A stretch of 64,000 nt of DNA from the human T2T-CHM13v2.0 reference genome, Homo sapiens. The notes beneath the pieces were generated by a model. The model ran no database searches. It worked only from the letters and a program-made list of their open reading frames with translations, and was not told the origin of the DNA. Below are positions 2,775 to 22,700 of this stretch, in pieces (positions within the stretch are counted from its first letter, which is position 1; every line of letters starts with the position of its first letter). The DNA is taken from the NCBI RefSeq assembly GCF_009914755.1, contig NC_060929.1, one strand, 5' to 3'. The position numbers were made by a program, and so were the translations under genes.

Positions 2775-3330
2775 TTGTATTCATTTTCTATTGCTGTATA
2801 ACAAATGCCACAAAGTTAGCAGTTTAAATACACACTGACTATATCACAGTTTGTGTGGTCAGAGGCTGGGCATAACTGCAGTTGGTCTCTGCTCAGGTTC
2901 TCGAGGCTGAAATCAATGAGTCAGCTGGGGGTTTCTTCCTGGAGCTCTGAGTCTTCTCTCAAGTTCATGTGGTTCCTCCTGGTTTAGCAGGAAGGCCTCA
3001 TTCTCTTGCTGGCTGTTGGCTGGGTACTCTCAGTTCCCAGAGGCAGCTCACAGTTCCCCGCCACACAGCCCCTCCACACCCCTTCATGCTGCACATCCCT
3101 GACTTCAGGAGGGTCCTCATCCCTTCCAAGGGCTCACTTGGTTAAGTCAGGGCCACTGAATAATCTCCTTTTTCACTAACTCAAAGTCAAGTGATTCCTT
3201 CGTAACTCAATCATAGGAAGATAGCCCATCATACCCTCTCCATACTGGAGAGGAGGGAATTGTATAAAGCATGTTCCCTAGGGAGCAGGAATGTTGGAGA
3301 CCATCTTAGAACTCTGCCTGTCAGAGTATC
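2775..3330 (-). mobile_element. MLT1-family MaLR LTR
   Basis: TGTATTCATTTTCTATTGCTGTATAACAAA...CACAGTT...GGCTGAAATCAA...CCATCTTAGAACTCTGCCT. Confidence 0.7.
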
Positions 3331-7413: not shown

Positions 7414-9470
7414 TGAGGGTTCTATTTATATGAGGTTCTAGAACAGGCAAAACTGAGCTATTGGTGATAGAAAGCAAGATGGCGGTTACCTCTGGGTGGA
7501 GACAAGAAAGGGGCATAGGGAATTTTCTGAGATGTTAAAAATATTCTGTACTTATTGGAGATGCTGGTCATGGGCGCATATATTTGTCAACATCCATCTA
7601 ACTCTACACTTAAAATCTGTGATTTTGTGTGTAAATTATATCCTTTCTTTTTTAAGAGTTAGAACAAAAGAAAAAAAGTAAGTTGCAGGATGTGGAGGGA
7701 AATTCTCAGTGGAATCCCACAAGGAAACCGTGCCAGCCCCTCCATTTGTCCAAGCATTCTACTCGCCACGGGGTTGGATGCTACACAGACGCCAATGAAA
7801 AGGTTGCTCCCGGGAAATGTTTGGAAGCCGCTTAATGCTCCTTGCAGGGAGACATTCAGATAACATACATTGTTTCCCCAGAAATATACACACTGTGAGA
7901 GAGAAGCTTACTCCAAAAGGGTGGCTCAAAAATACAGCATTCTGTTTCTTGCGGCAACCGGTTTGCAGTGTCAAGAAACGTAAGACAATCTATGTTGTCT
8001 TTCCCACTTCATGAATGCTAAACGCTGAAGGTATTCAGCTTAGCATCTCCGAGCTGGAGAGAATGAGGACACCATCCACCTGACTTCTCTTCAAACCAGA
8101 GTCCCTTCTCCAGCACTCCTGCTCAATAGGAATCCAGGCACTTACCTGATTTGGCATGTGAGATCAGTACTTCCAGCCCATTCTTTTGGGACAACTCTTC
8201 ATTTGCTTTCAAGTTCTTAGCAGTCATTAACTAGCAATCTTCATCCTGGTATCTTTTATGTGTCAGTCGCTTTTTCCTTCAGAAGAAGGAAAGGACAGCT
8301 CCGCACAGCTCCCCACCTGTACTCTTAGGGTCAAGGGGAGCCAGGCTGTTCATTTGGTCCATCCTTTTTCAACACCACTTCTTGCCTTATGAGTGCTGCA
8401 GAAATATCCTCTAATGAAAAGAAAAGTGTCCTCCTTTAGAAACAGGAACCTCCAGGTCTTAACTACTATCCTGGGAATGAAGTCAGCCACAAAACTAAGG
8501 GATAATTGGGCAGTTAGGAAGCACCTCTTAACCTCAAAATAATACAACCCTTCCTAAGGCTGTCTTTCCACCACTACAGCTTCGCTCGTGTAGGGAATGA
8601 AGGAGTGGCCCCTCTTCAAAGACCCCCTTTGAAAATGCAGCATTTCCCAAGGAAAGCCACACATTCAGCTGCTTATTAACAGCAACATGTTTTTCGTGTT
8701 AATTTGCCGTTCACAACACACTCCTATGTGTTACCTCCTTAGGCCCTCACTAGGAGCTCCTGCAGAAGATCATGGATTATCATTATTTCCACCTATCTTT
8801 TTGGAAGATAAATCTCAAGCAGTTCCATGGCTCACCTAGACCACCTAGATGGGCAGTGGCAAAGCTGGAACTAAAAAGCAAGTCTTCCCACAGCAGGTCC
8901 TGTGCTCTTCCCATAGACAAGGCACCTGCCACCTGGTCCTCACTATTCAGGAGACTGATTGCTGTGAGAGCAGAAACAGAACGCAGGACAGTTCCTGGGA
9001 AAGGCAAGAAGAGTGCATGAGCCATTGTGTTGGGGGTGAGGAGAAGGGGCTCAGGACAGGAAGGAAGCGGGGACCAGGCCCACCTTCACTTGCTCCGAGT
9101 TTTGCCAGGCATATGTGTCCTCAGAGAAACTCACATACACCAGGTGTTCGGAATATGACCGTAGCCACAACTACTTCACAATCTTCCAAGCGAGCAAGTC
9201 AATCCATTGATTCCTCTAGTAGCGATGGATAAAAACCCAACTCAAATTGGCCTGGACAGTGATGTCGAGAGGGGCTCGGTCACGAAGCCGCAGTGCTTTT
9301 GGCAGTCCCTCAATACCCCTTCAGACTGTGTTTCTCCTTGCGCAGCAAGTCGATGCTGGGAGCTCCAACTTACAGCCGTTGGGGGTGATTTTGCGAAGGT
9401 AGTTTTTTCAAGCAAAGTTCAGTTCCCTAAAGCATACTGGCTGAAAAAGTCTTGCCCTGCTGCCCAATAG

Positions 9471-9785
<315 letters not shown>

Positions 9786-9845
9786 CTCATTATTTTTCAA
9801 AGACACACACGGCTTCTCAGAACCCGCCCTCCAGGGTTCACCATG

Positions 9846-10899
9846 CTGGGCTGGCGCAGAGACCCATCCAGGCGGTAGGAGCGGGGACAGGCGCGGGGTC
9901 GTGGAGGGCCCCGGGCTGTTCCTGATCCTCGAACTCTCTCCTCCCCACGGCCGCGGTCTCCTCCCCGGGCCCCGCGCGCCAGGCCCTGCGAAAAGCCCCA
10001 ACGGGTCCCCCGGCGACCGCCGCGCCGGCCTCTCGGTCCTGTCCTCCGAGGCGCCAGGCCTCCGCCTCCAGCGCGGGCCTCTCGGGCAGCGCCGCCCCTC
10101 CCCCTGCGCGCACGGGAGGCCGCCTGGGTTCGGCTTTGGACCAGGCGAGCAGCGCGGCGCTGGCCGCTCTGCCGGGTCAGCCCCGCGGAGACGTCTTCCC
10201 CGCTGCGCCCCGGCCCCAGCGCAGCGCCCGGGGAGCGGCCCCTCCTCGGGCAGCGGCCGGCGCCTGTGTCCCTAGCGCGGTACTGCTTCTGCCTGAGGAC
10301 TCCCCGCCGGGGTCCTCCCTGTCGCCGTCTGCGCCTCCGCGCCCTGTGGGCCGAGGCCCCGGCGCTCCTCGCTCAGCCCAACTCCCAAGGCCCAGCGGGT
10401 CCCTGCTCTGCCGTCCGGGGATCCCGCGGGTGGTCCGGAGCCCGGGGCGCGGCGCGCCGTTCATTCCCGCGTCCTGGCGGGGCCTGCTTCTTCCCGAGCC
10501 CTCTCCCTGCGGCTGGTGGTCCCAGCGTGCTGGCCGCGTCTCCCCTCTTCTCGGGACACCAGCCCTGTTGGATCAGGGCCCCCCCACAACGACCTGTGCC
10601 ACCTCATCCGCCTCTTTAAAGACCCCATCCCCAAGGGCGGCCGCATCCGGAGGCCCAGGGGTGAGGACTTCGCCACGGGAAGGAGGCACACGATTCAGCC
10701 CATGACACCGCCACCTCGGCGTGGTGCTGTAGGGGGAAGCTCAGGCACTCACCGAGGACAGGACCCGGGGAATCCGCTGGGGCTTTCAGCAGGGCCTGGC
10801 GCGCGGGGCCTGGGGAGGAGACCTGGGGAACAGCCCAGGGCCCTCCCAGAACCCGCGCCTGCCCCCCGCTGCCTGGATGGGGTCTCTGTACCAGCCCAG
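9846..10899. repeat. Long imperfect inverted repeat (arms ~9846-10075 and ~10723-10899)
   Basis: 9955-9989 vs the reverse complement of 10789-10823 is 34/35 identical; 9883-9922 vs 10827-10866 is 35/40; GGTCCTGTCCTC 10035-10046 pairs with 10754-10765. Confidence 0.9.
10400..10707 (-). mobile_element. MaLR MLT1(A/B-like) LTR relic, unusually GC-rich
   Basis: GGACACCAG...TTGGATCAGGGCCC...CTCTTTAAAGACCC...AGGACTTC...ATTCAGCCCATGACA matches the MLT1 LTR terminus pattern. Confidence 0.65.
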
Positions 10900-11271
10900 A
10901 CCAGAGCGAGTGTCAAGGGGGCTCCTCTGGCCGCGCTGCGCCCCCGCGGGGCAGCCCCAGAAGGGCCATTGCTCAGTCCTCACCAAGACCAGCGAGGCGG
11001 ATTCGGCCAGCCCCTTTCCAGAAGAGGAAGCCGAGGTTCGGAAAGGTCAACCAACTTGTCCCAGGACGCTGGCCGGTTCAGAGGCAGCTCTGGACTCAGA
11101 CCCAGGCTTCCCAATTCTAAAGCCCACTGCATGAGCCGTCAGGGCCCAGCTACAGGGTCTTTCGGGGACACTTGGACGGGATAACTTCCACAGTGAGGCG
11201 ATAAGGTCAGGCTGGTCCCATCTGGGGACCTTATAAAGTCTCTCACTGTCTAAGTGAGATGCCTGTACAGT

Positions 11272-11593
11272 GCCCACACAGCATGCACACACGTGCATGC
11301 ACACACCCACATGCACACACACACTCATGCACACACACATGCATGCACACGCCCACATGCACACATTCATGCACACACACACATGCATGCACACACATGC
11401 ACACACAGGCATACTTACGTGCATATGCATACATGAAACACGTGCACACATACACCCATGTACACACACATATGCACACATGCATACTCCTGGCACACAC
11501 GTGCACACACACCCATGTACACACACATGCATGCATTCTCCTGGCACACACATACACACTTCCACCCTCACACTAGCTCACGCTCACACACAC
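11272..11593. repeat. Degenerate (CA)n/(CATG)n microsatellite
   Basis: About 320 nt of cacacatgca-type alternating purine-pyrimidine sequence. Confidence 0.92.
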
Positions 11594-12701
11594 TCGAGTC
11601 CCCTTGACATCATGGGAATCTTCCCTTCCTGACTGCACCACAAGCCTGGTCTGAAAGGAGGCTGCAGGAGGTAATATAACCGCCCAAGCCCCACGCAAAA
11701 AGGCGCAGTTAAAGCACAGTCAAATCAATGAGCAGATCCGGCATTTTTTGTGTGATGTTCCTCCCGGGAGGCCCAAAGTTGAGTAGATTTTATTTAAACT
11801 GTCTTTTCAAATACATTCTAATTGCTTTATGCCTTGTTTCACAGCTCAGAGTTGGAAACAAATTCCATTTTAGAAGTTGCCATTACCCATTTGCAAGCAC
11901 CGCCTTCCCCCACCCACCCCTGCCCCCCAAAAATTCCGTGGCTACATCAGGAGAATAGATTTTCTCATTTCCCAGTGTGAAGCGAAGCAGATGTGTGTGA
12001 AGCCTCTAGCTCACCAGGTTAACCACGAGCATTTCGCCGTGTTGCCGCCATACCGCATGATTATAAAAGCAGACTTTTTTTTTTTGAGACAGAGGACTCT
12101 CTTAATTAAAGCAAATTGATTAGGTATTTGTGTGCCCTTTCACAATGACAAATCCATACAATTATTTTCATGAATAATTTTATTTTTATTTTGGTCATGA
12201 CTTTTTAAAATTAATGGAAAGTCTCAGTCTGCTCAAATGATAAACCAAAAAATGGGGTCATGAAGCAAATTCAGTCTTTGCATTTCTTCAACAACCAACT
12301 CACATTTCTCTGCTCCTTGACTCAGAGGCTGGACATGTGCTAACAGCTTTTTTGCTTCTGTATATCCTTAATAGGATGGCAGAATCCCGGTGTTAAAAGA
12401 ATCTTAAAGTCAGCCGTGTCACCATGGGACCTCGATTAGCAAACAGATGTAGACATTCCTTCCAAATTCAGTCAAAGAAAAAACTCTAATACCAGCAGCC
12501 ATGTTCAGGGTGTGCACGACATGCTGAGCGCTTGGGATACATCCCCTTGTTTAATTCTCACAGAAACTTTGTGAGACAAGTACTATAATCCCTGTTTAAC
12601 AGATGGGCAAACTGAGGTTTGGAAAAACACTCATTTACCGGAGGTCACACAGCTGGAAAATAGCAGTGCTGGGATGTGAACCTGGGTGTCCTCAAGGCTG
12701 A

Positions 12702-13295: not shown

Positions 13296-13603
<308 letters not shown>

Positions 13604-17760: not shown

Positions 17761-18519
17761 AATTCTTTGAAATTAAGCTGCACCATCTTGGAGTCATGTC
17801 ACATTGCTATTTGAGGGTAAAAGGATCCAAAGGCATCTAGAAAGGTTGAAGCTAATGGGTTGCTGCTCGGTGAGGGAAGGAGGGACAGCCTGCTCTGGAG
17901 ACCATGACTGTAACTGCACCTGCTCTGGAAGGGGATTTGGAGGCCACAGTCAGATATGGCTGCTAAGAAAGCCAAGGAGCTGGGGGAAAGGCAGGATAGT
18001 AGGGGGTAACAGAGCTTCCCAGACACACCGAGTGGGTGCAGGTGCACTGTATGTGGTCTCTGGTAGACTGACTATCTTGGTCCTTCGGGGCTGGGGAGTG
18101 GCTGGTCACCTCCAGCCTAGTGTCCTCTTCCCTTCCTGCAGTGAGGGAAGTGCTACCATTCTTTGCATGTGCTATGATATGGGAAAGCTGGCAAGCAATG
18201 TCCTAGAGTGCCACCCTTAGTCACTCACTTCGGGGGCAGAACAGCATCTGCTCAAGGGTTAAAGGCCAAAGACTGCAACCAACGGGACTGTGCCAGAGAC
18301 AATCCCAAACCCATCAACCTTCCCTTCAGCTGTGGCCGGCAGCACAGCTGGACAGCAGAGCCCCAGGGGAGGCAGAAATTTTGTGGTTGAAGAATGTTCC
18401 CAAAATGTGGTCCTTGGGAAACACCAAAGCGGAAGGAAGGCCCAGTTATGAGAACTTAGGCGGGCCAGTGGATGACTGAACCCCCGCTCTGCCCCACCCT
18501 CCTCTGGGGTGACAGCAGA

Positions 18520-19720
18520 AACATTCCATGGCCCCAGCAGACACTGGGGTAACACTCCACGGCTGACCCTGGGGTAACACTTGTGGCCCCGGCTGACGCT
18601 CAGGTAACACTCTATGGCCCCAGCTGACTCTAGGGTAACACTCCGCGGCCCTGACTGATGTGGGGGTAACACTCCACAGCCCTGGTTGACACTGGGGTAA
18701 CACTCCACGTCCCTGGTTGATGCTGGGGGTAACACTCCACAGCCCTGGATGACGCTGGAGTAACACTCCACAGCCCTGGTTGATGCTGGGGGTAACACTC
18801 CACGTCCCTGGTTGATGCTGGGGGTAACACTCCACAGCCCTGGATGGCGCTGGGGTAATGCCCTACAGCCCTGGTTGATGCTGGGGGTAACACTCCACAG
18901 CCCTGGATGGCGCTGGGGTAATGCCCTACAGCCCTGGTTGATGCTGGGGGTAACACTCCACGTCCCTGGATGGCGCTGGGGTAACACTCCACAGCCCTGG
19001 ATGGCGCTGGGGTAACACTCCACAGCCCTGGTTGGCGCTGGGGTAATGCCCTACAGCCCTGGATGGCGCTGGGGTAATGCCCTACAGCCCTGGATGGCGC
19101 TGGGGTAACGCCCTACAGCCCTGGATGGCGCTGGGGTAACACTCCACAGCCCTGGATGGCGCTGGGGTAACACTCCACAGCCCTGGATGGCGCTGGGGTA
19201 ACACTCCACAGCCCTGGATGGCGCTGGGGTAACACTCCACAGCCCTGGATGGCGCTGGGGTAATGCCCTACAGCCCTGGATGGCGCTGGGGTAATGCCCT
19301 ACAGCCCTGGATGGCGCTGGGGTAACACTCCACAGCCCTGGATGGCGCTGGGGTAATGCCCTACAGCCCTGGATGGCGCTGGGGTAATGCCCTACAGCCC
19401 TGGATGGCGCTGGGGTAACGCCCTACAGCCCTGGATGGCGCTGGGGTAACGCCCTACAGCCCTGGATGGCGCTGGGGTAACACTCCACAGCCCTGGATGG
19501 CGCTGGGGTAACACTCCACAGCCCTGGATGGCGCTGGGGTAACGCCCTACAGCCCTGGATGGCGCTGGGGTAACGCCCTACAGCCCTGGATGGCGCTGGG
19601 GTAACGCCCTACAGCCCTGGATGGCGCTGGGGTAACGCCCTACAGCCCTGGATGGCGCTGGGGTAATGCCCTACAGCCCTGGATGGCGCTGGGGTAACGC
19701 CCTACAGCCCTGGCTGACCC
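18520..19720. repeat. GC-rich minisatellite/VNTR, 31-32 bp unit, about 38 copies
   Basis: Unit GCCCTGGATGGCGCTGGGGTAAC(ACTCC/GCCCT)ACA; 31-nt period (e.g. 19141 and 19172). Confidence 0.97.
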
Positions 19721-22700
19721 TGTTGGTTGCTCCCCAGTAGCCATGCCCAGTCTTCCTTCCTACCAAAGCCTCGATTCTGTTCCAGCGGCAACACGCCCAG
19801 CCTCAGGGGATGAGTCAAGATTGGCCAAAGCCTCCTATGGCGATCGCATTACCCTTGCCAGTGAAGGGGATGGCGACCCTGTGACCTAGCTCTGGCTAGT
19901 GGCTGTAAGTCTGCCGAAAGGTGGGAAAGTTTTCCCCTGAATTGAAATTAAAGAGACAACCTCTCAAGAAGACCGCTCTCTTCCCTGCCCCCTTCCCTTC
20001 TACCCAGGCTACTCTTGGGTGAAGACATAGGTTCACAGCTGCAGCAGCCACCTTGTGACCATGAGGAAAGGACAAGAGAACGGCAGAGACTGAGTGGTAC
20101 TCAGGTGTGGCCAAGTCGCTGACAGACCCAGGATGCGCTGACCGTCTTCCAAGCTTCTCCTGTAGTGTGTGCTAAGAAAGGACACTCAGATATTCTGTTA
20201 CTTCCCATCAAAAGCATATTTACCATCCTGTACTTTTCCTGTCTGTTATCATATTTGCATACATGGGAGCTGTGACCACACTATCAGAGGAGAGGCAGTG
20301 GAAGAGGTTGGATGACAGAGCTGGTAAATGGTGGGACCAGGCCTCAAACTCTCTTCTGCTGATAGGAAACCTCAGGCATGGTCTGCTCTGCTCTGCCTCT
20401 GGTATAAATTCATTCAGCTTACAGATTCCCCAACCTCAGGGGCCATGCCTCAAATTTTCAAAGCCGATGTGGAAAAGTCCAATCCAAAATGACAAAATAT
20501 GTCTGTGAAAGGAACGCCCCAATCCTTGGCTCATTCTAAACATGCTACTATTATTATAAAGCTCTCCCAAACTGTTGCAAGGAAAAAAAAAAAAAGGACA
20601 AGAAAAGAGTGGAGAGAGAAAGTGAACATGCCAAGAAGTCATTGAAAGGAAACTTTTTTTTGTTGTTTTGGGAGCCAGGAAATGTCAAGGGAACAAATGT
20701 AGCTATGATTTACACTGCATCTCCAGTTGTGCCATGGAATTCAAAAATAGGCATCTTAATTAAAACTGACAGCAGAGAGCAGCCCTGACAAGTAGACAAA
20801 CCACCAAAGAGGCTGAAAAATCTCCATTTGACTCTGGGTTGACAGTATTTAACCAATATACAGAGTTGATAAGAGAAAAGGAAAATGCGTAAACTTTACT
20901 CGAGTCTCTGGGCTTTTCTTGTTTTCAAACTGATTGGTCTGGACAATGGAAGGCCAACAGCCAACAATAAATCCATTGTAAGCTGGCATGGTCTCCTCTG
21001 AATACAACTAAATATTTCTTTAATCCTTGCATTACATTTTTTACTGTATTATGAAAGCCATGTATTCTAAAGTTTTAAGCTTTTATAACATTGTAACTAT
21101 AGGTATAAGATGGGGGGATTGATTACTTAGGCAACCTATTTAAAGCACTTTAAGAGGAAAATATTAGATTTTTTTGCATGAATATTTTCACATCATAGTG
21201 AAGATACGATCGTTCATGGCTCTTACTCAGAAATCTTGTTTATCTCTTCCTTTGTGTGCCATGGGAAGGGTCTTTAATGATCATGAGTTGACATGAATAT
21301 TCCTTTCTTGTAGCTTCTGTATCTTCATTATCGGGCACATCAGCCGGTCCCAGAAAAAGTTATTTCACAGTTCTGTTCCCAAGGGAACAAAGAGAGTGGG
21401 TCCCATATTCACAGTGGCTTTTGTTGGCTTCTTTCCCCCTGACATTAAAGCCATGTATGGTTGGCAAGGATGTCTTTTCTTTAATGTGGACATGGTTTCT
21501 GCCTCTGGTTCTCTGGAAACAAGTTTGCTGTAGGACAAGCTGCCCGCACACTCACATACACGGAAAAGAGGCTTCACTGAGAACAAATCAGAACTGAAAA
21601 ACAGCTTCAAGTACAAATGTTCTTTTCTTCCGAGATTTTGAGTTCAATATTTATTTGGCTTTCATATCTAATGGCTTGAAAAAGTATCTATACATCTAAT
21701 TAGAGTTAATTACTCACTCCCTGTATGTGCCTCCCACAGTGCTCTCCTCCCAGCCAAGGAACTCATTGTTACCGGCCAGGCTGTGTACATTTCCCATCCA
21801 GTGACATTTACAAGAAGAATAGCTCCTAGCAGAAACAGGCTGGTACCCTAAGAGAGAGAAGCTGTCTCACAGGGGCCACCCAAACAACCAGAAGTTCAGC
21901 CCCAACTGCATTCATACTGCACCATCTCTGACTCTCCACTGGCGGGAAAACCCAGCCAGCTTACACTCCACGCACAGCATGCGCCTCAGATACCCAGCTG
22001 GGATTAGCGAGCAGGACCACGTGTGAATGGCACGGCAAATTCTCCAGAATACAGGGTTCCCTGGATTCTAAATTTTTCTCTTGCCTTTCTAATCAAGAAC
22101 AGAGAGAGAGAGAGAACACACACCCTGTCCAATAACTCATTGTTCAAGCACTGTAGTTCACCCAGGTAAAATTCAGTGCAGCCGGGAGGGGGGAAGCCTG
22201 GGAGAGCAACTGCAGTCTCTCCCGCTGAAGTTCAGGACTCAAAAATCAACACTTCCCAGCAGTGGCTGCCTGCCCAGGATGCCCCTCCCTCCTAAAATAG
22301 ACACAATTTGTAGTTCCTTGTAAAATGGTTGTATCAGGACTTCTGATTTACTCAATCAGGGCTTGCGGTTTATTTTTAGCAAATAAGAGAGGCCTCCTAT
22401 GAGAAAGAGCAGCCACACTTATAGCACTAACAGGTAGAAACTTTACTGGCCCTCTATAAATCAATTCAACACCCTGGTCTCCAGGCATTTGCCAAAAGCT
22501 AATGGGCGGCAATTATGAAACCATCGCCAGGAGTTTCCAGCAGGGCTGAGAGAGAGTTTTAAGTCTGCAGGCCCTTTCAAGGGTAAAATAGGAAATCATT
22601 TCATGAAGCAGCAATTTTACCCAGAACCCAGCTAGAAGAGATGTGATCCTAGCTTAAATTAAAGTGACTAAGAAACAGGTGGGGTGAACAAGGAGGTGTG

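What the first reader, a model, noticed from the sequence alone, without database searches (positions are those of the whole stretch)
10400..10707. An old MLT1 LTR apparently rewritten toward G/C to become part of a CpG island
Seen: GGACACCAGCCCTGTTGGATCAGGGCCCCCCCACAACGACC...CTCTTTAAAGACCCCATCCCCAAGGGCGGCCGCATCCGGAGGCCCAGGGGTGAGGACTTCGCCAC...CACGATTCAGCCCATGACA. From memory, the MLT1A/B consensus reads roughly GGACACCAGTCATATTGGATTAGGGCCCACCCTAATGACC...CCAAATACAGTCACATTCTGAGGTACTGGGGGTTAGGACTTCAACAT...CACAATTCAGCCCATAACA. Nearly every difference is A/T to G/C, the reverse of normal repeat decay. The MLT1 at 2775-3330 shows no such shift. Inference: a fossil hotspot of GC-biased gene conversion in distal 5q created a new CpG island from transposon DNA.
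Basis: inference. Interest (0 to 1): 0.72.

Follow-up and report, generated by a model that had tools for sequence, protein, structure and literature searches.

The report
GC-rewritten old LTR on CpG island
An ancient retrotransposon LTR inside an intronic CpG island of COL23A1 has had nearly half of its A/T positions replaced by G/C, a clean but ordinary example of the known GC-enriching process that helps to build CpG islands.

Summary
Window 10471-10707 (possibly from about 10345) is a copy of an abundant ~330-400-bp LTR-type repeat. The name MLT1 is recalled, because no Dfam was available. It lies on the right shoulder of a true CpG island at 9600-11100 (GC 0.71, CpG o/e 0.75) in COL23A1 intron 1.

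Differences were polarised against pairs of genome-wide copies, without building a consensus.
- **This copy:** about 45 weak-to-strong against 7 strong-to-weak changes.
- **24 control copies:** on average 9.8 against 9.5.
- **Spectrum:** the changes are both transitions and transversions, mostly outside CpGs, and show no strand asymmetry.
- **Locality:** a family member 134 kb away, an old LTR 7.5 kb away and five pseudoautosomal copies show no shift or a much weaker one.

GC-biased gene conversion, or a CpG-island-linked fixation bias, together with CpG protection is the best reading. It remains inferred, since no recombination, methylation or cross-species data were available.

"Island created from transposon DNA" is overstated. 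Only 237 of about 1500 bp are demonstrably LTR, and they sit on the shoulder (CpG o/e 0.57).

The concept is already in print (Polak & Arndt 2009; Cohen et al. 2011).

Also noticed: a 175-225-bp inverted repeat brackets the island core and the LTR.

The parts
10471..10707 (+). Solidly recognisable part of the LTR copy. It comprises a mid part and the ~180-bp 3' module shared across the family, with an internal deletion of about 45 nt near 10535-10540. GC is 0.675, with 15 CpG and CpG o/e 0.57.
   Evidence: About 118.5 of about 183 polarised sites are unchanged, with 45.4 W>S against 6.8 S>W.
10345..10470 (+). Possible 5' part of the same LTR, rewritten almost beyond recognition (GC 0.778, CpG o/e 0.90). 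The expected 5' end lies about 116 nt before 10471, and a TG start is present at 10345.
   Evidence: anchored global alignment gives z 4.5-6.0 with 0 of 60 shuffles reaching it, but six control pieces of the island range from z -3.5 to +3.1. One search shows a signal only with a W>S-tolerant matrix. One search (strict local scoring) found nothing. This part is suggestive only.
9600..11100 (.). CpG island in COL23A1 intron 1: GC 0.707, CpG o/e 0.75, 139 CpG. The core at 9900-10450 has o/e 0.8-0.97.
9497..9772 (-). Alu at the left edge of the island. It has the most CpGs (16) and the highest GC (0.58) of the 23 full-length Alus in the window.
9846..10072 (+). Left arm of an inverted repeat that brackets the island core and the LTR (27 CpG, o/e 0.83).
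10726..10899 (-). Right arm of the inverted repeat. It begins 19 bp after the LTR 3' end (9 CpG, o/e 0.40).
   Evidence: In total 150 of 170 aligned positions are identical.

Best explanation
**Shown.** Window 10471-10707, perhaps from about 10345, is an ancient solo LTR of a very abundant LTR-retrotransposon family. It is MaLR/MLT1-like by recollection. It lies on the + strand, antisense to COL23A1, within the right shoulder of a 1.5-kb intronic CpG island.
- Since insertion about 46% of its ancestral A/T positions have become G/C.
- Its other substitution classes ran at about the usual rate for the family.
- The shift involves transitions and transversions, mostly lies outside CpG dinucleotides, has no clear strand asymmetry, and is confined to the island rather than to the region.

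**Inferred.** A local, long-lasting or recurrent bias in the fixation of G/C alleles drove the sequence toward an equilibrium GC of about 0.85. This was GC-biased gene conversion during repair of meiotic breaks at or next to the island. Germline hypomethylation of the island then protected many of the CpGs created in this way. The LTR was therefore absorbed into the island. It did not seed it.
For: **Homology and multi-copy status:**

**Spectrum**
- (3' module, 30 copies): candidate 33.8 W>S, 4.0 S>W, 2.3 WW and 1.5 SS. Controls average 7.5 and 6.7, with a maximum W>S of 14.2. Implied equilibrium GC is 0.86.
- (10471-10707, 24 full-length copies): 45.4 against 6.8, versus control means of 9.8 and 9.5 (maximum W>S 16.6). 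W>S per ancestral W site is 0.56, 0.42 and 0.42 from the island side outward.
- 31 transitions and 11 transversions among the 42 W>S changes. Only 12 of the 42 lie in a CpG.
- changes to C number 24 and to G 18 (p=0.44).

**Locality**
- the family copy 134 kb away has 10.3 W>S against 11.2 S>W.
- the old LTR 7.5 kb away is within its family's range.
- across 62 rows (61 distinct copies) W>S rises with flanking GC (r=0.48). The candidate lies 5.4 residual sd above the prediction.

**The same kind of shift occurs elsewhere.** Two copies in GC-rich distal 2p and distal 21q have 23.2 against 4.1 and 20.3 against 5.9. Their CpG o/e is only 0.2-0.3. The candidate's 0.57-0.90 therefore needs CpG protection as well.

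**Literature (passages read)**
- PMC2817419 reports a gBGC signature within CpG islands, correlated with recombination rate, and proposes that recombination created the islands.
- PMC11170920 proposes gBGC as a source of orphan CpG islands.
- PMC8286816 summarises Cohen et al. 2011, including a class of 'biased gene conversion islands'.
Against: - **Strong-to-weak changes are only mildly reduced.** The rate is 0.08 per S site against 0.11 in controls. Constant strong gBGC would suppress them far more, so an episodic process must be assumed.
- **Pseudoautosomal copies are shifted less.** Five PAR1 copies show only 12-15 W>S. Recombination rate alone therefore does not predict the size of the shift.
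- **No hotspot motif nearby.** No PRDM9-type 13-mer occurs within 9000-12000; the nearest is at 13338. The motif is recalled, and its absence is weak evidence.
- **Other causes fit equally well.** Coincidence with a CpG island is also expected under selection for island or promoter properties, or under a repair or mutation bias in open chromatin. [quoted passage not shown]
- **Missing data.** No recombination map, allele-frequency, methylation or cross-species data were available here.
Confidence: 0.55

Rival explanations
1. Mutation or repair bias rather than fixation bias. The island is unmethylated open chromatin and may be a promoter or replication origin. Repair there, for example base-excision or mismatch repair favouring G:C, or transcription-associated mutagenesis, produces an excess of A/T to G/C mutations without any meiotic recombination.
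For: - The shift coincides with the island and grows toward its core: 0.56 against 0.42 W>S per W site.
- PAR1 copies with very high recombination are shifted less.
- Strong-to-weak changes are not strongly suppressed. That fits a raised W>S input better than a fixation bias acting on both directions.
- An alternative COL23A1 exon at 8146-9556 abuts the island (hub annotation; donor GTAAGT seen).
Against: - There is no clear strand asymmetry: 24 changes to C and 18 to G, p=0.44. Transcription-coupled processes are strand-asymmetric (recalled).
- I know of no established mutational process that raises both W>S transitions and W>S transversions several-fold.
- Published work attributes the W>S excess within islands mainly to gBGC (PMC2817419, passages read).
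Confidence: 0.2
2. Selection. The LTR was co-opted into an alternative promoter or regulatory island of COL23A1. G/C and CpG gains were favoured because they create GC-rich factor sites, exclude nucleosomes or keep the DNA unmethylated.
For: - The island is strong, with core o/e 0.8-0.97.
- It lies directly upstream, on the minus strand, of an annotated alternative exon (hub annotation).
- CpG o/e in the LTR part (0.57-0.90) is higher than in other GC-shifted copies (0.2-0.3).
Against: - About 42 of 93 ancestral A/T positions changed. That is far too many and too evenly spread for site-by-site selection.
- 30 of the 42 changes create no CpG.
- The review PMC8286816 (passage read) reports little evidence for purifying selection on CpG density in the work of Cohen et al.
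- RefSeq lists no functional element at 9600-11100 (hub annotation).
Confidence: 0.15
3. Artefact. A GC-rich sequence aligned by chance, or to the wrong subfamily, against AT-richer repeats would show apparent weak-to-strong 'changes'.
For: - Any spurious alignment of 67% GC DNA to 42% GC DNA gives mostly W>S mismatches.
- The 5' part (10345-10470) is indeed at that limit.
Against: - For 10471-10707 the homology is far beyond shuffled controls: z=10-13, with 0 of 200 shuffles reaching it.
- The 3' module aligns almost without gaps between conserved blocks and ends exactly at the family's 3' end.
- About 65% of polarised sites are unchanged.
- A search with the candidate itself found no GC-rich subfamily, only ordinary copies.
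Confidence: 0.03

Closest known systems
GC-biased gene conversion tracts and 'biased gene conversion islands' (Polak & Arndt 2009, PMC2817419; Cohen, Kenigsberg & Tanay 2011, seen only as cited and summarised in PMC8286816 and PMC4417305; phastBias tracts as used in PMC11170920)
   Same: - There is a dense local cluster of weak-to-strong substitutions that raises GC and creates CpGs.
- The location is distal on the chromosome, 2.92 Mb from the end.
- It coincides with a non-canonical (intronic) CpG island.
   Different: - As summarised in PMC8286816, the BGC class of islands is highly methylated with rapid deamination. Here the core has CpG o/e 0.8-0.97, which looks like a canonical unmethylated island.
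- No lineage-specific dating, recombination data or methylation data were available.
- The size of the shift exceeds that of five PAR1 copies.
Ordinary decayed solo LTR copies of the same family (61 distinct copies examined)
   Same: It has the same architecture, the same 3' end and a comparable number of changes other than W>S.
   Different: It has about 4.5 times more W>S changes and GC 0.67 against 0.38-0.55.
Transposon-derived CpG islands (for example Alu-derived or retrotransposon-borne islands; PMC3217256 seen in a search listing only; PMC11170920 discussion)
   Same: Transposon sequence forms part of a CpG island.
   Different: In those cases the element brings its own CpG-rich sequence. 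Here an element whose relatives have GC of about 0.42 and very few CpGs became GC- and CpG-rich by substitution after insertion.

Membership tests
MaLR/MLT1-type solo LTR (name recalled) | Significant similarity to many dispersed genomic copies over LTR length | tested here: met
   - 12 other hits, and 4534 and 6258 first-look candidates with two copies as queries.
- z=10-13 against dinucleotide shuffles for 10471-10551.
- near gap-free alignment of 10552-10707.
MaLR/MLT1-type solo LTR (name recalled) | Best match to a curated MLT1 subfamily model (Dfam/Repbase) | not testable with these tools
   No Dfam or Repbase library was available. I built no profile or consensus of the family.
MaLR/MLT1-type solo LTR (name recalled) | LTR termini TG...CA | tested here: inconclusive
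   - The 3' CA at 10706-10707 aligns with the copies' 3' ends.
- The family's 5' end starts with TG.
- A TG at 10345 lies at the expected distance, but homology there is only suggestive.
MaLR/MLT1-type solo LTR (name recalled) | Short target-site duplication flanking the element | tested here: inconclusive
   The 5' end is not fixed. The flanks are so GC-rich that short matches carry no weight (inspection).
CpG island (length of at least 200 bp, GC at least 0.5, CpG o/e at least 0.6; criteria recalled) | Composition criteria | tested here: met
   - 9600-11100 has GC 0.707 and o/e 0.75.
- the solid LTR part alone (10471-10707) has GC 0.675 and o/e 0.57, just under the threshold.
- 10345-10707 has o/e 0.73.
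CpG island (functional sense) | Unmethylated in the germline, with promoter-type chromatin | not testable with these tools
   No methylation or chromatin data were available. The only support is indirect.
- Core o/e is 0.8-0.97.
- The Alu at the edge keeps 16 CpG, against 3-13 in 22 other window Alus.
gBGC tract | Clustered excess of weak-to-strong over strong-to-weak substitutions | tested here: met
   42 against 5, or 45.4 against 6.8. Controls are about 1:1.
gBGC tract | Association with present or past recombination, and W>S alleles skewed to high frequency | not testable with these tools
   No recombination maps or polymorphism data were available. No PRDM9-type 13-mer lies in 9000-12000; this is a recalled motif and is not a defining feature.
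gBGC tract | Lineage-specific timing on a species tree | not testable with these tools
   Only the human genome is held.

The most novel reading that the evidence does not exclude
The whole LTR of about 363 bp, including 10345-10470 (now GC 0.78, CpG o/e 0.90), was ordinary AT-rich, CpG-poor transposon DNA. Substitution alone turned it into part of the unmethylated core of a CpG island.

The driver would not be a PRDM9 hotspot. It would be the 175-225-bp inverted repeat (9846-10072 / 10726-10899) that brackets exactly this interval. That repeat is a hairpin- or cruciform-prone structure which could attract recurrent breaks and repair. It would make a fixed, long-lived site of GC-biased conversion, stronger than anything seen in the five pseudoautosomal copies examined.
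Probability: 0.08. Interest if true: 0.6.

Novelty: new member of a known kind. Interest (0 to 1): 0.3.

Why it matters
An old repeat provides an internal record of how a CpG island gains its composition, because its starting sequence can be inferred from thousands of relatives. This copy shows that about 46% of A/T sites can be converted to G/C within about 240 bp. A relative 134 kb away and another LTR 7.5 kb away stay balanced. The copy also shows that GC gain (W>S drive) and CpG retention are separable layers. It is a good teaching case and a possible test locus for the published idea that GC-biased conversion builds non-promoter CpG islands. It does not add a new principle.

Tried and rejected
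- **Strict local alignment.** With +2/-3 scoring, 10293-10552 against the 5' parts of 24 copies scored no better than reversed or shuffled controls. Softer scoring then recovered 10471-10551.
- **LTR 5' part.** 10250-10390 showed no similarity. The anchored global test for 10345-10470 gave z 4.5-6.0, but control pieces of the island reached z 3.1. I do not claim that part.
- **Rest of the island.** Own-genome searches with 9772-10554 and 10708-11240 found no other genomic copies, so no repeat origin is shown for the rest of the island.
- **PRDM9-type 13-mer.** None lies within 9000-12000.
- **Rfam.** No family matches in 9000-12000.
- **Cohen et al. 2011.** The paper is not held.
- **Paper search.** Four combined terms returned nothing.
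- **COL23A1 island.** No paper on this island was identified among the 10 listed, and none was opened.
- **Soft-masking.** It is absent from the window file, so NCBI's repeat call for 10471-10707 could not be read.
- **Wrong subfamily or GC-rich source copy.** Rejected, because the candidate used as a query finds only ordinary copies.
- **Profile or consensus of the family.** Not built. The 5' extent therefore rests on pairwise and multiple alignments only.

Full report
**1. What is there**

The window is chr5:179118001-179182000 of the T2T human assembly (hub note; confirmed). The quoted strings are present: the first starts at 10554 and the last ends at 10707.

The surroundings form a true CpG island.
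- 9600-11100 has GC 0.707, CpG observed/expected 0.75 and 139 CpGs.
- 200-nt tiles between 9900 and 10450 reach GC 0.78-0.79 and o/e 0.82-0.97.
- The island lies in intron 1 of COL23A1 (minus strand), 2.92 Mb from the end of the chromosome.
- It sits directly upstream, in the minus-strand sense, of an exon of other COL23A1 transcripts at 8146-9556 (hub annotation).
- That exon is followed by a GTAAGT donor and is preceded by TTGCAG inside an Alu. It may therefore be a first exon or a spliced exon; I could not tell which.

**2. Is it a repeat copy?**

Yes.
- An own-genome search with 10540-10710 gave 12 matches besides itself, at 68-85% identity.
- Those places are related to each other over up to about 330 bp, for example 333 bp at 81.7%.
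- Two of them used as queries gave 4534 and 6258 first-look candidates. Only 40 were scored each time, so these are lower bounds.
- All copies end where the candidate ends, at 10707.
- The family's 5' end begins with TG and the 3' end is CA, as in LTRs.
No Dfam or Repbase library was available, so the name and subfamily are untested.

**3. Extent**

- The 3' module (10552-10707) aligns almost without gaps between conserved blocks.
- Strict local scoring found nothing further 5'.
- Scoring suited to about 65% identity shows clear homology of 10471-10551 with the corresponding part of 24 full-length copies: z=12.7, with 0 of 200 dinucleotide shuffles reaching the real score. There is an internal deletion of about 45 nt.
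- For 10380-10470 a signal appears only with a matrix that forgives weak-to-strong changes (z=4.0, 0 of 200). Standard scoring gives z=-1.9.
- The family's 5' end lies about 116 nt before the point matching 10471. That predicts a start near 10345-10355, and a TG is present at 10345.
- An anchored global test of 10345-10470 gives z 4.5-6.0 (0 of 60 shuffles). Six control pieces of the same island give z from -3.5 to +3.1.
- I therefore treat 10471-10707 as established and 10345-10470 as possible.

**4. The substitution spectrum**

The element is retrovirus-like, so I built no consensus. Changes were polarised by triplets: a site counts when two other copies agree with each other, and the focal copy is then scored as same or changed, averaged over all pairs.

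| Region and reference set | Focal copy | W>S | S>W | W<>W | S<>S |
|---|---|---|---|---|---|
| 3' module, 30 genome-wide copies | candidate | 33.8 | 4.0 | 2.3 | 1.5 |
| 3' module, 30 genome-wide copies | controls, mean | 7.5 | 6.7 | 1.2 | 0.8 |
| 10471-10707, 24 full-length copies | candidate | 45.4 | 6.8 | 3.2 | 8.9 |
| 10471-10707, 24 full-length copies | controls, mean | 9.8 | 9.5 | not reported | not reported |

- In the 3' module about 131 sites were polarised. The highest W>S among the 30 controls was 14.2, and the candidate's implied equilibrium GC is 0.86.
- Over 10471-10707 the highest control W>S was 16.6.
- W>S per ancestral W site is 0.56 in the third nearest the island core and 0.42 in each of the other two thirds. 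The controls show about 0.10.
- Column by column, at the 162 columns where at least 20 of 30 copies share a base, the candidate differs at 52: 42 W>S, 5 S>W, 3 W<>W and 2 S<>S. The binomial test of 42 of 47 gives p=1.2e-8.
- The 42 W>S changes are T>C 18, A>G 13, A>C 6 and T>G 5.
- Only 12 of the 42 W>S changes lie in a CpG of the candidate.
- Changes to C (24) and to G (18) do not differ (p=0.44).
- The changes other than W>S are about as many as in the controls. This is a directional excess and does not reflect a generally fast clock.

One caution applies. The control copies are the best-scoring hits of their searches and are therefore less diverged than the family average.

**5. How local and how unusual**

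Thirty-four further copies were put to the same test. Two were dropped because they lacked a match reaching the 3' part (L020, L012), which leaves 32.

| Copies | W>S | S>W |
|---|---|---|
| Five pseudoautosomal (PAR1) copies | 11.9-14.8 | 5.3-11.0 |
| Same-family copy 134 kb proximal on 5q | 10.3 | 11.2 |
| Distal 2p copy | 23.2 | 4.1 |
| Distal 21q copy | 20.3 | 5.9 |

- The distal 2p and 21q copies were found with the GC-rich candidate as query. Similar but weaker shifts therefore exist elsewhere.
- Over all 62 rows (61 distinct copies, since L030 and L072 are the same place), W>S rises with flanking GC (r=0.48). The candidate lies 5.4 residual standard deviations above the prediction of 14.5.
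- The old LTR at 2775-3330, tested on its first 160 bp against 10 relatives, has 8.8 against 5.2. This is inside the relatives' range of 5.5-12.6 and 4.1-10.9.

**6. Two layers: GC gain and CpG retention**

- The two other GC-shifted copies have CpG o/e of only 0.21-0.32 around them.
- The candidate has o/e 0.57 (10471-10707) and 0.90 (10345-10470).
- The Alu at the opposite edge of the island (9497-9772, minus strand) keeps 16 CpGs, the most among 23 full-length Alus in the window (the others have 3-13). It is the only one with W>S (8.8) above S>W (7.1).
- This fits germline protection of CpGs in the island on top of a general W>S drive.
- The Alu's small W>S excess suggests that most of the rewriting is older than the Alu or is confined in space. 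This is inference only, because the Alu lies about 700 bp away.

**7. Mechanism**

The best reading is a local fixation bias toward G/C, namely GC-biased gene conversion, acting at or beside the island, combined with hypomethylation.

This matches published genome-wide results.
- Polak & Arndt 2009 (PMC2817419, passages read) found a gBGC signature within CpG islands, stronger in non-TSS islands and correlated with recombination rate. They proposed that islands first emerge by BGC.
- The review PMC8286816 (passage read) summarises the island classes of Cohen et al. 2011, including 'biased gene conversion islands'.
- PMC11170920 (discussion read) proposes gBGC as a source of orphan islands.

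Against a simple version of this reading:
- S>W changes are only mildly reduced (0.08 against 0.11 per S site).
- PAR1 copies are shifted less.
- No PRDM9-type 13-mer lies within 9000-12000.

Rival causes are a repair or mutation bias in open, unmethylated chromatin and selection for island properties. Neither can be excluded here. An alignment artefact is excluded for 10471-10707.

**8.

- The demonstrable LTR part is 237 of about 1500 bp and lies on the shoulder of the island.
- Apart from the Alu, the rest of the island has no other copies in the genome.
- The data show an LTR absorbed into an island. They do not show an island created from an LTR.
- If 10345-10470 is confirmed as LTR, part of the dense core would indeed be rewritten transposon DNA.

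**9. Seen in passing**

An inverted repeat brackets the core and the LTR.
- The left arm is 9846-10072 and the right arm 10726-10899.
- 150 of 170 aligned positions are identical. The score is 147, against a maximum of 41 in 300 shuffles.
- The arms pair in a single-strand fold.
- The right arm starts 19 bp after the LTR's end.
- The arms differ in CpG content: 27 CpG (o/e 0.83) on the left against 9 (o/e 0.40) on the right.
- At 12 of their 20 mismatches the left arm has G/C where the right has A/T, and 7 of those 12 lie in a left-arm CpG. The reverse holds at 4.
- The two paralogous arms therefore mark the edge of the CpG-protected domain, which falls about where the LTR lies.
- Both arms are GC-rich at their shared positions, so this DNA was already GC-rich when the duplication happened.

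**10. Verdict**

This is a clear, extreme instance of a known process.

Noticed in passing
window 9846-10072 and 10726-10899: An inverted repeat brackets the CpG-island core and the LTR. In total 150 of 170 aligned positions are identical, with several indels, and the spacer is 653 nt. There are no other copies in the genome. The right arm starts 19 bp after the LTR 3' end. The left arm keeps 27 CpG and the right arm only 9.
   Followed up: partly
window 9497-9772 (minus strand): An Alu lies at the left edge of the island. It has 16 CpG and GC 0.58, the highest of 23 full-length Alus in the window. It is the only one with more weak-to-strong than strong-to-weak changes. The annotated alternative COL23A1 exon (8146-9556) begins inside it, just after a TTGCAG.
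   Followed up: partly
window 11240-11420: A CA/TG-rich simple repeat with a 14-nt periodicity (six overlapping 57-nt units) lies just beyond the right end of the island.
   Followed up: no
loci L022/L023 and neighbours (G000 C23:1.219-1.221 Mb, C24:1.233-1.241 Mb): In the pseudoautosomal region the 5' ~150 nt of this LTR family occurs in long tandem arrays, with dozens of hits at 85-87% identity and a spacing of about 230 nt.
   Followed up: no
L011 (G000 C2:2.5757 Mb) and L009 (G000 C21:40.059 Mb): Two other copies of the family in GC-rich distal regions are also shifted weak-to-strong (23.2 against 4.1 and 20.3 against 5.9). They have low CpG o/e (0.2-0.3), so they gained GC without forming an island.
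   Followed up: partly
window 18400-19800: A second GC-rich block has GC 0.63 but CpG o/e only 0.35. It has GC-rich composition without island-level CpG retention and would be a useful contrast to 9600-11100.
   Followed up: no
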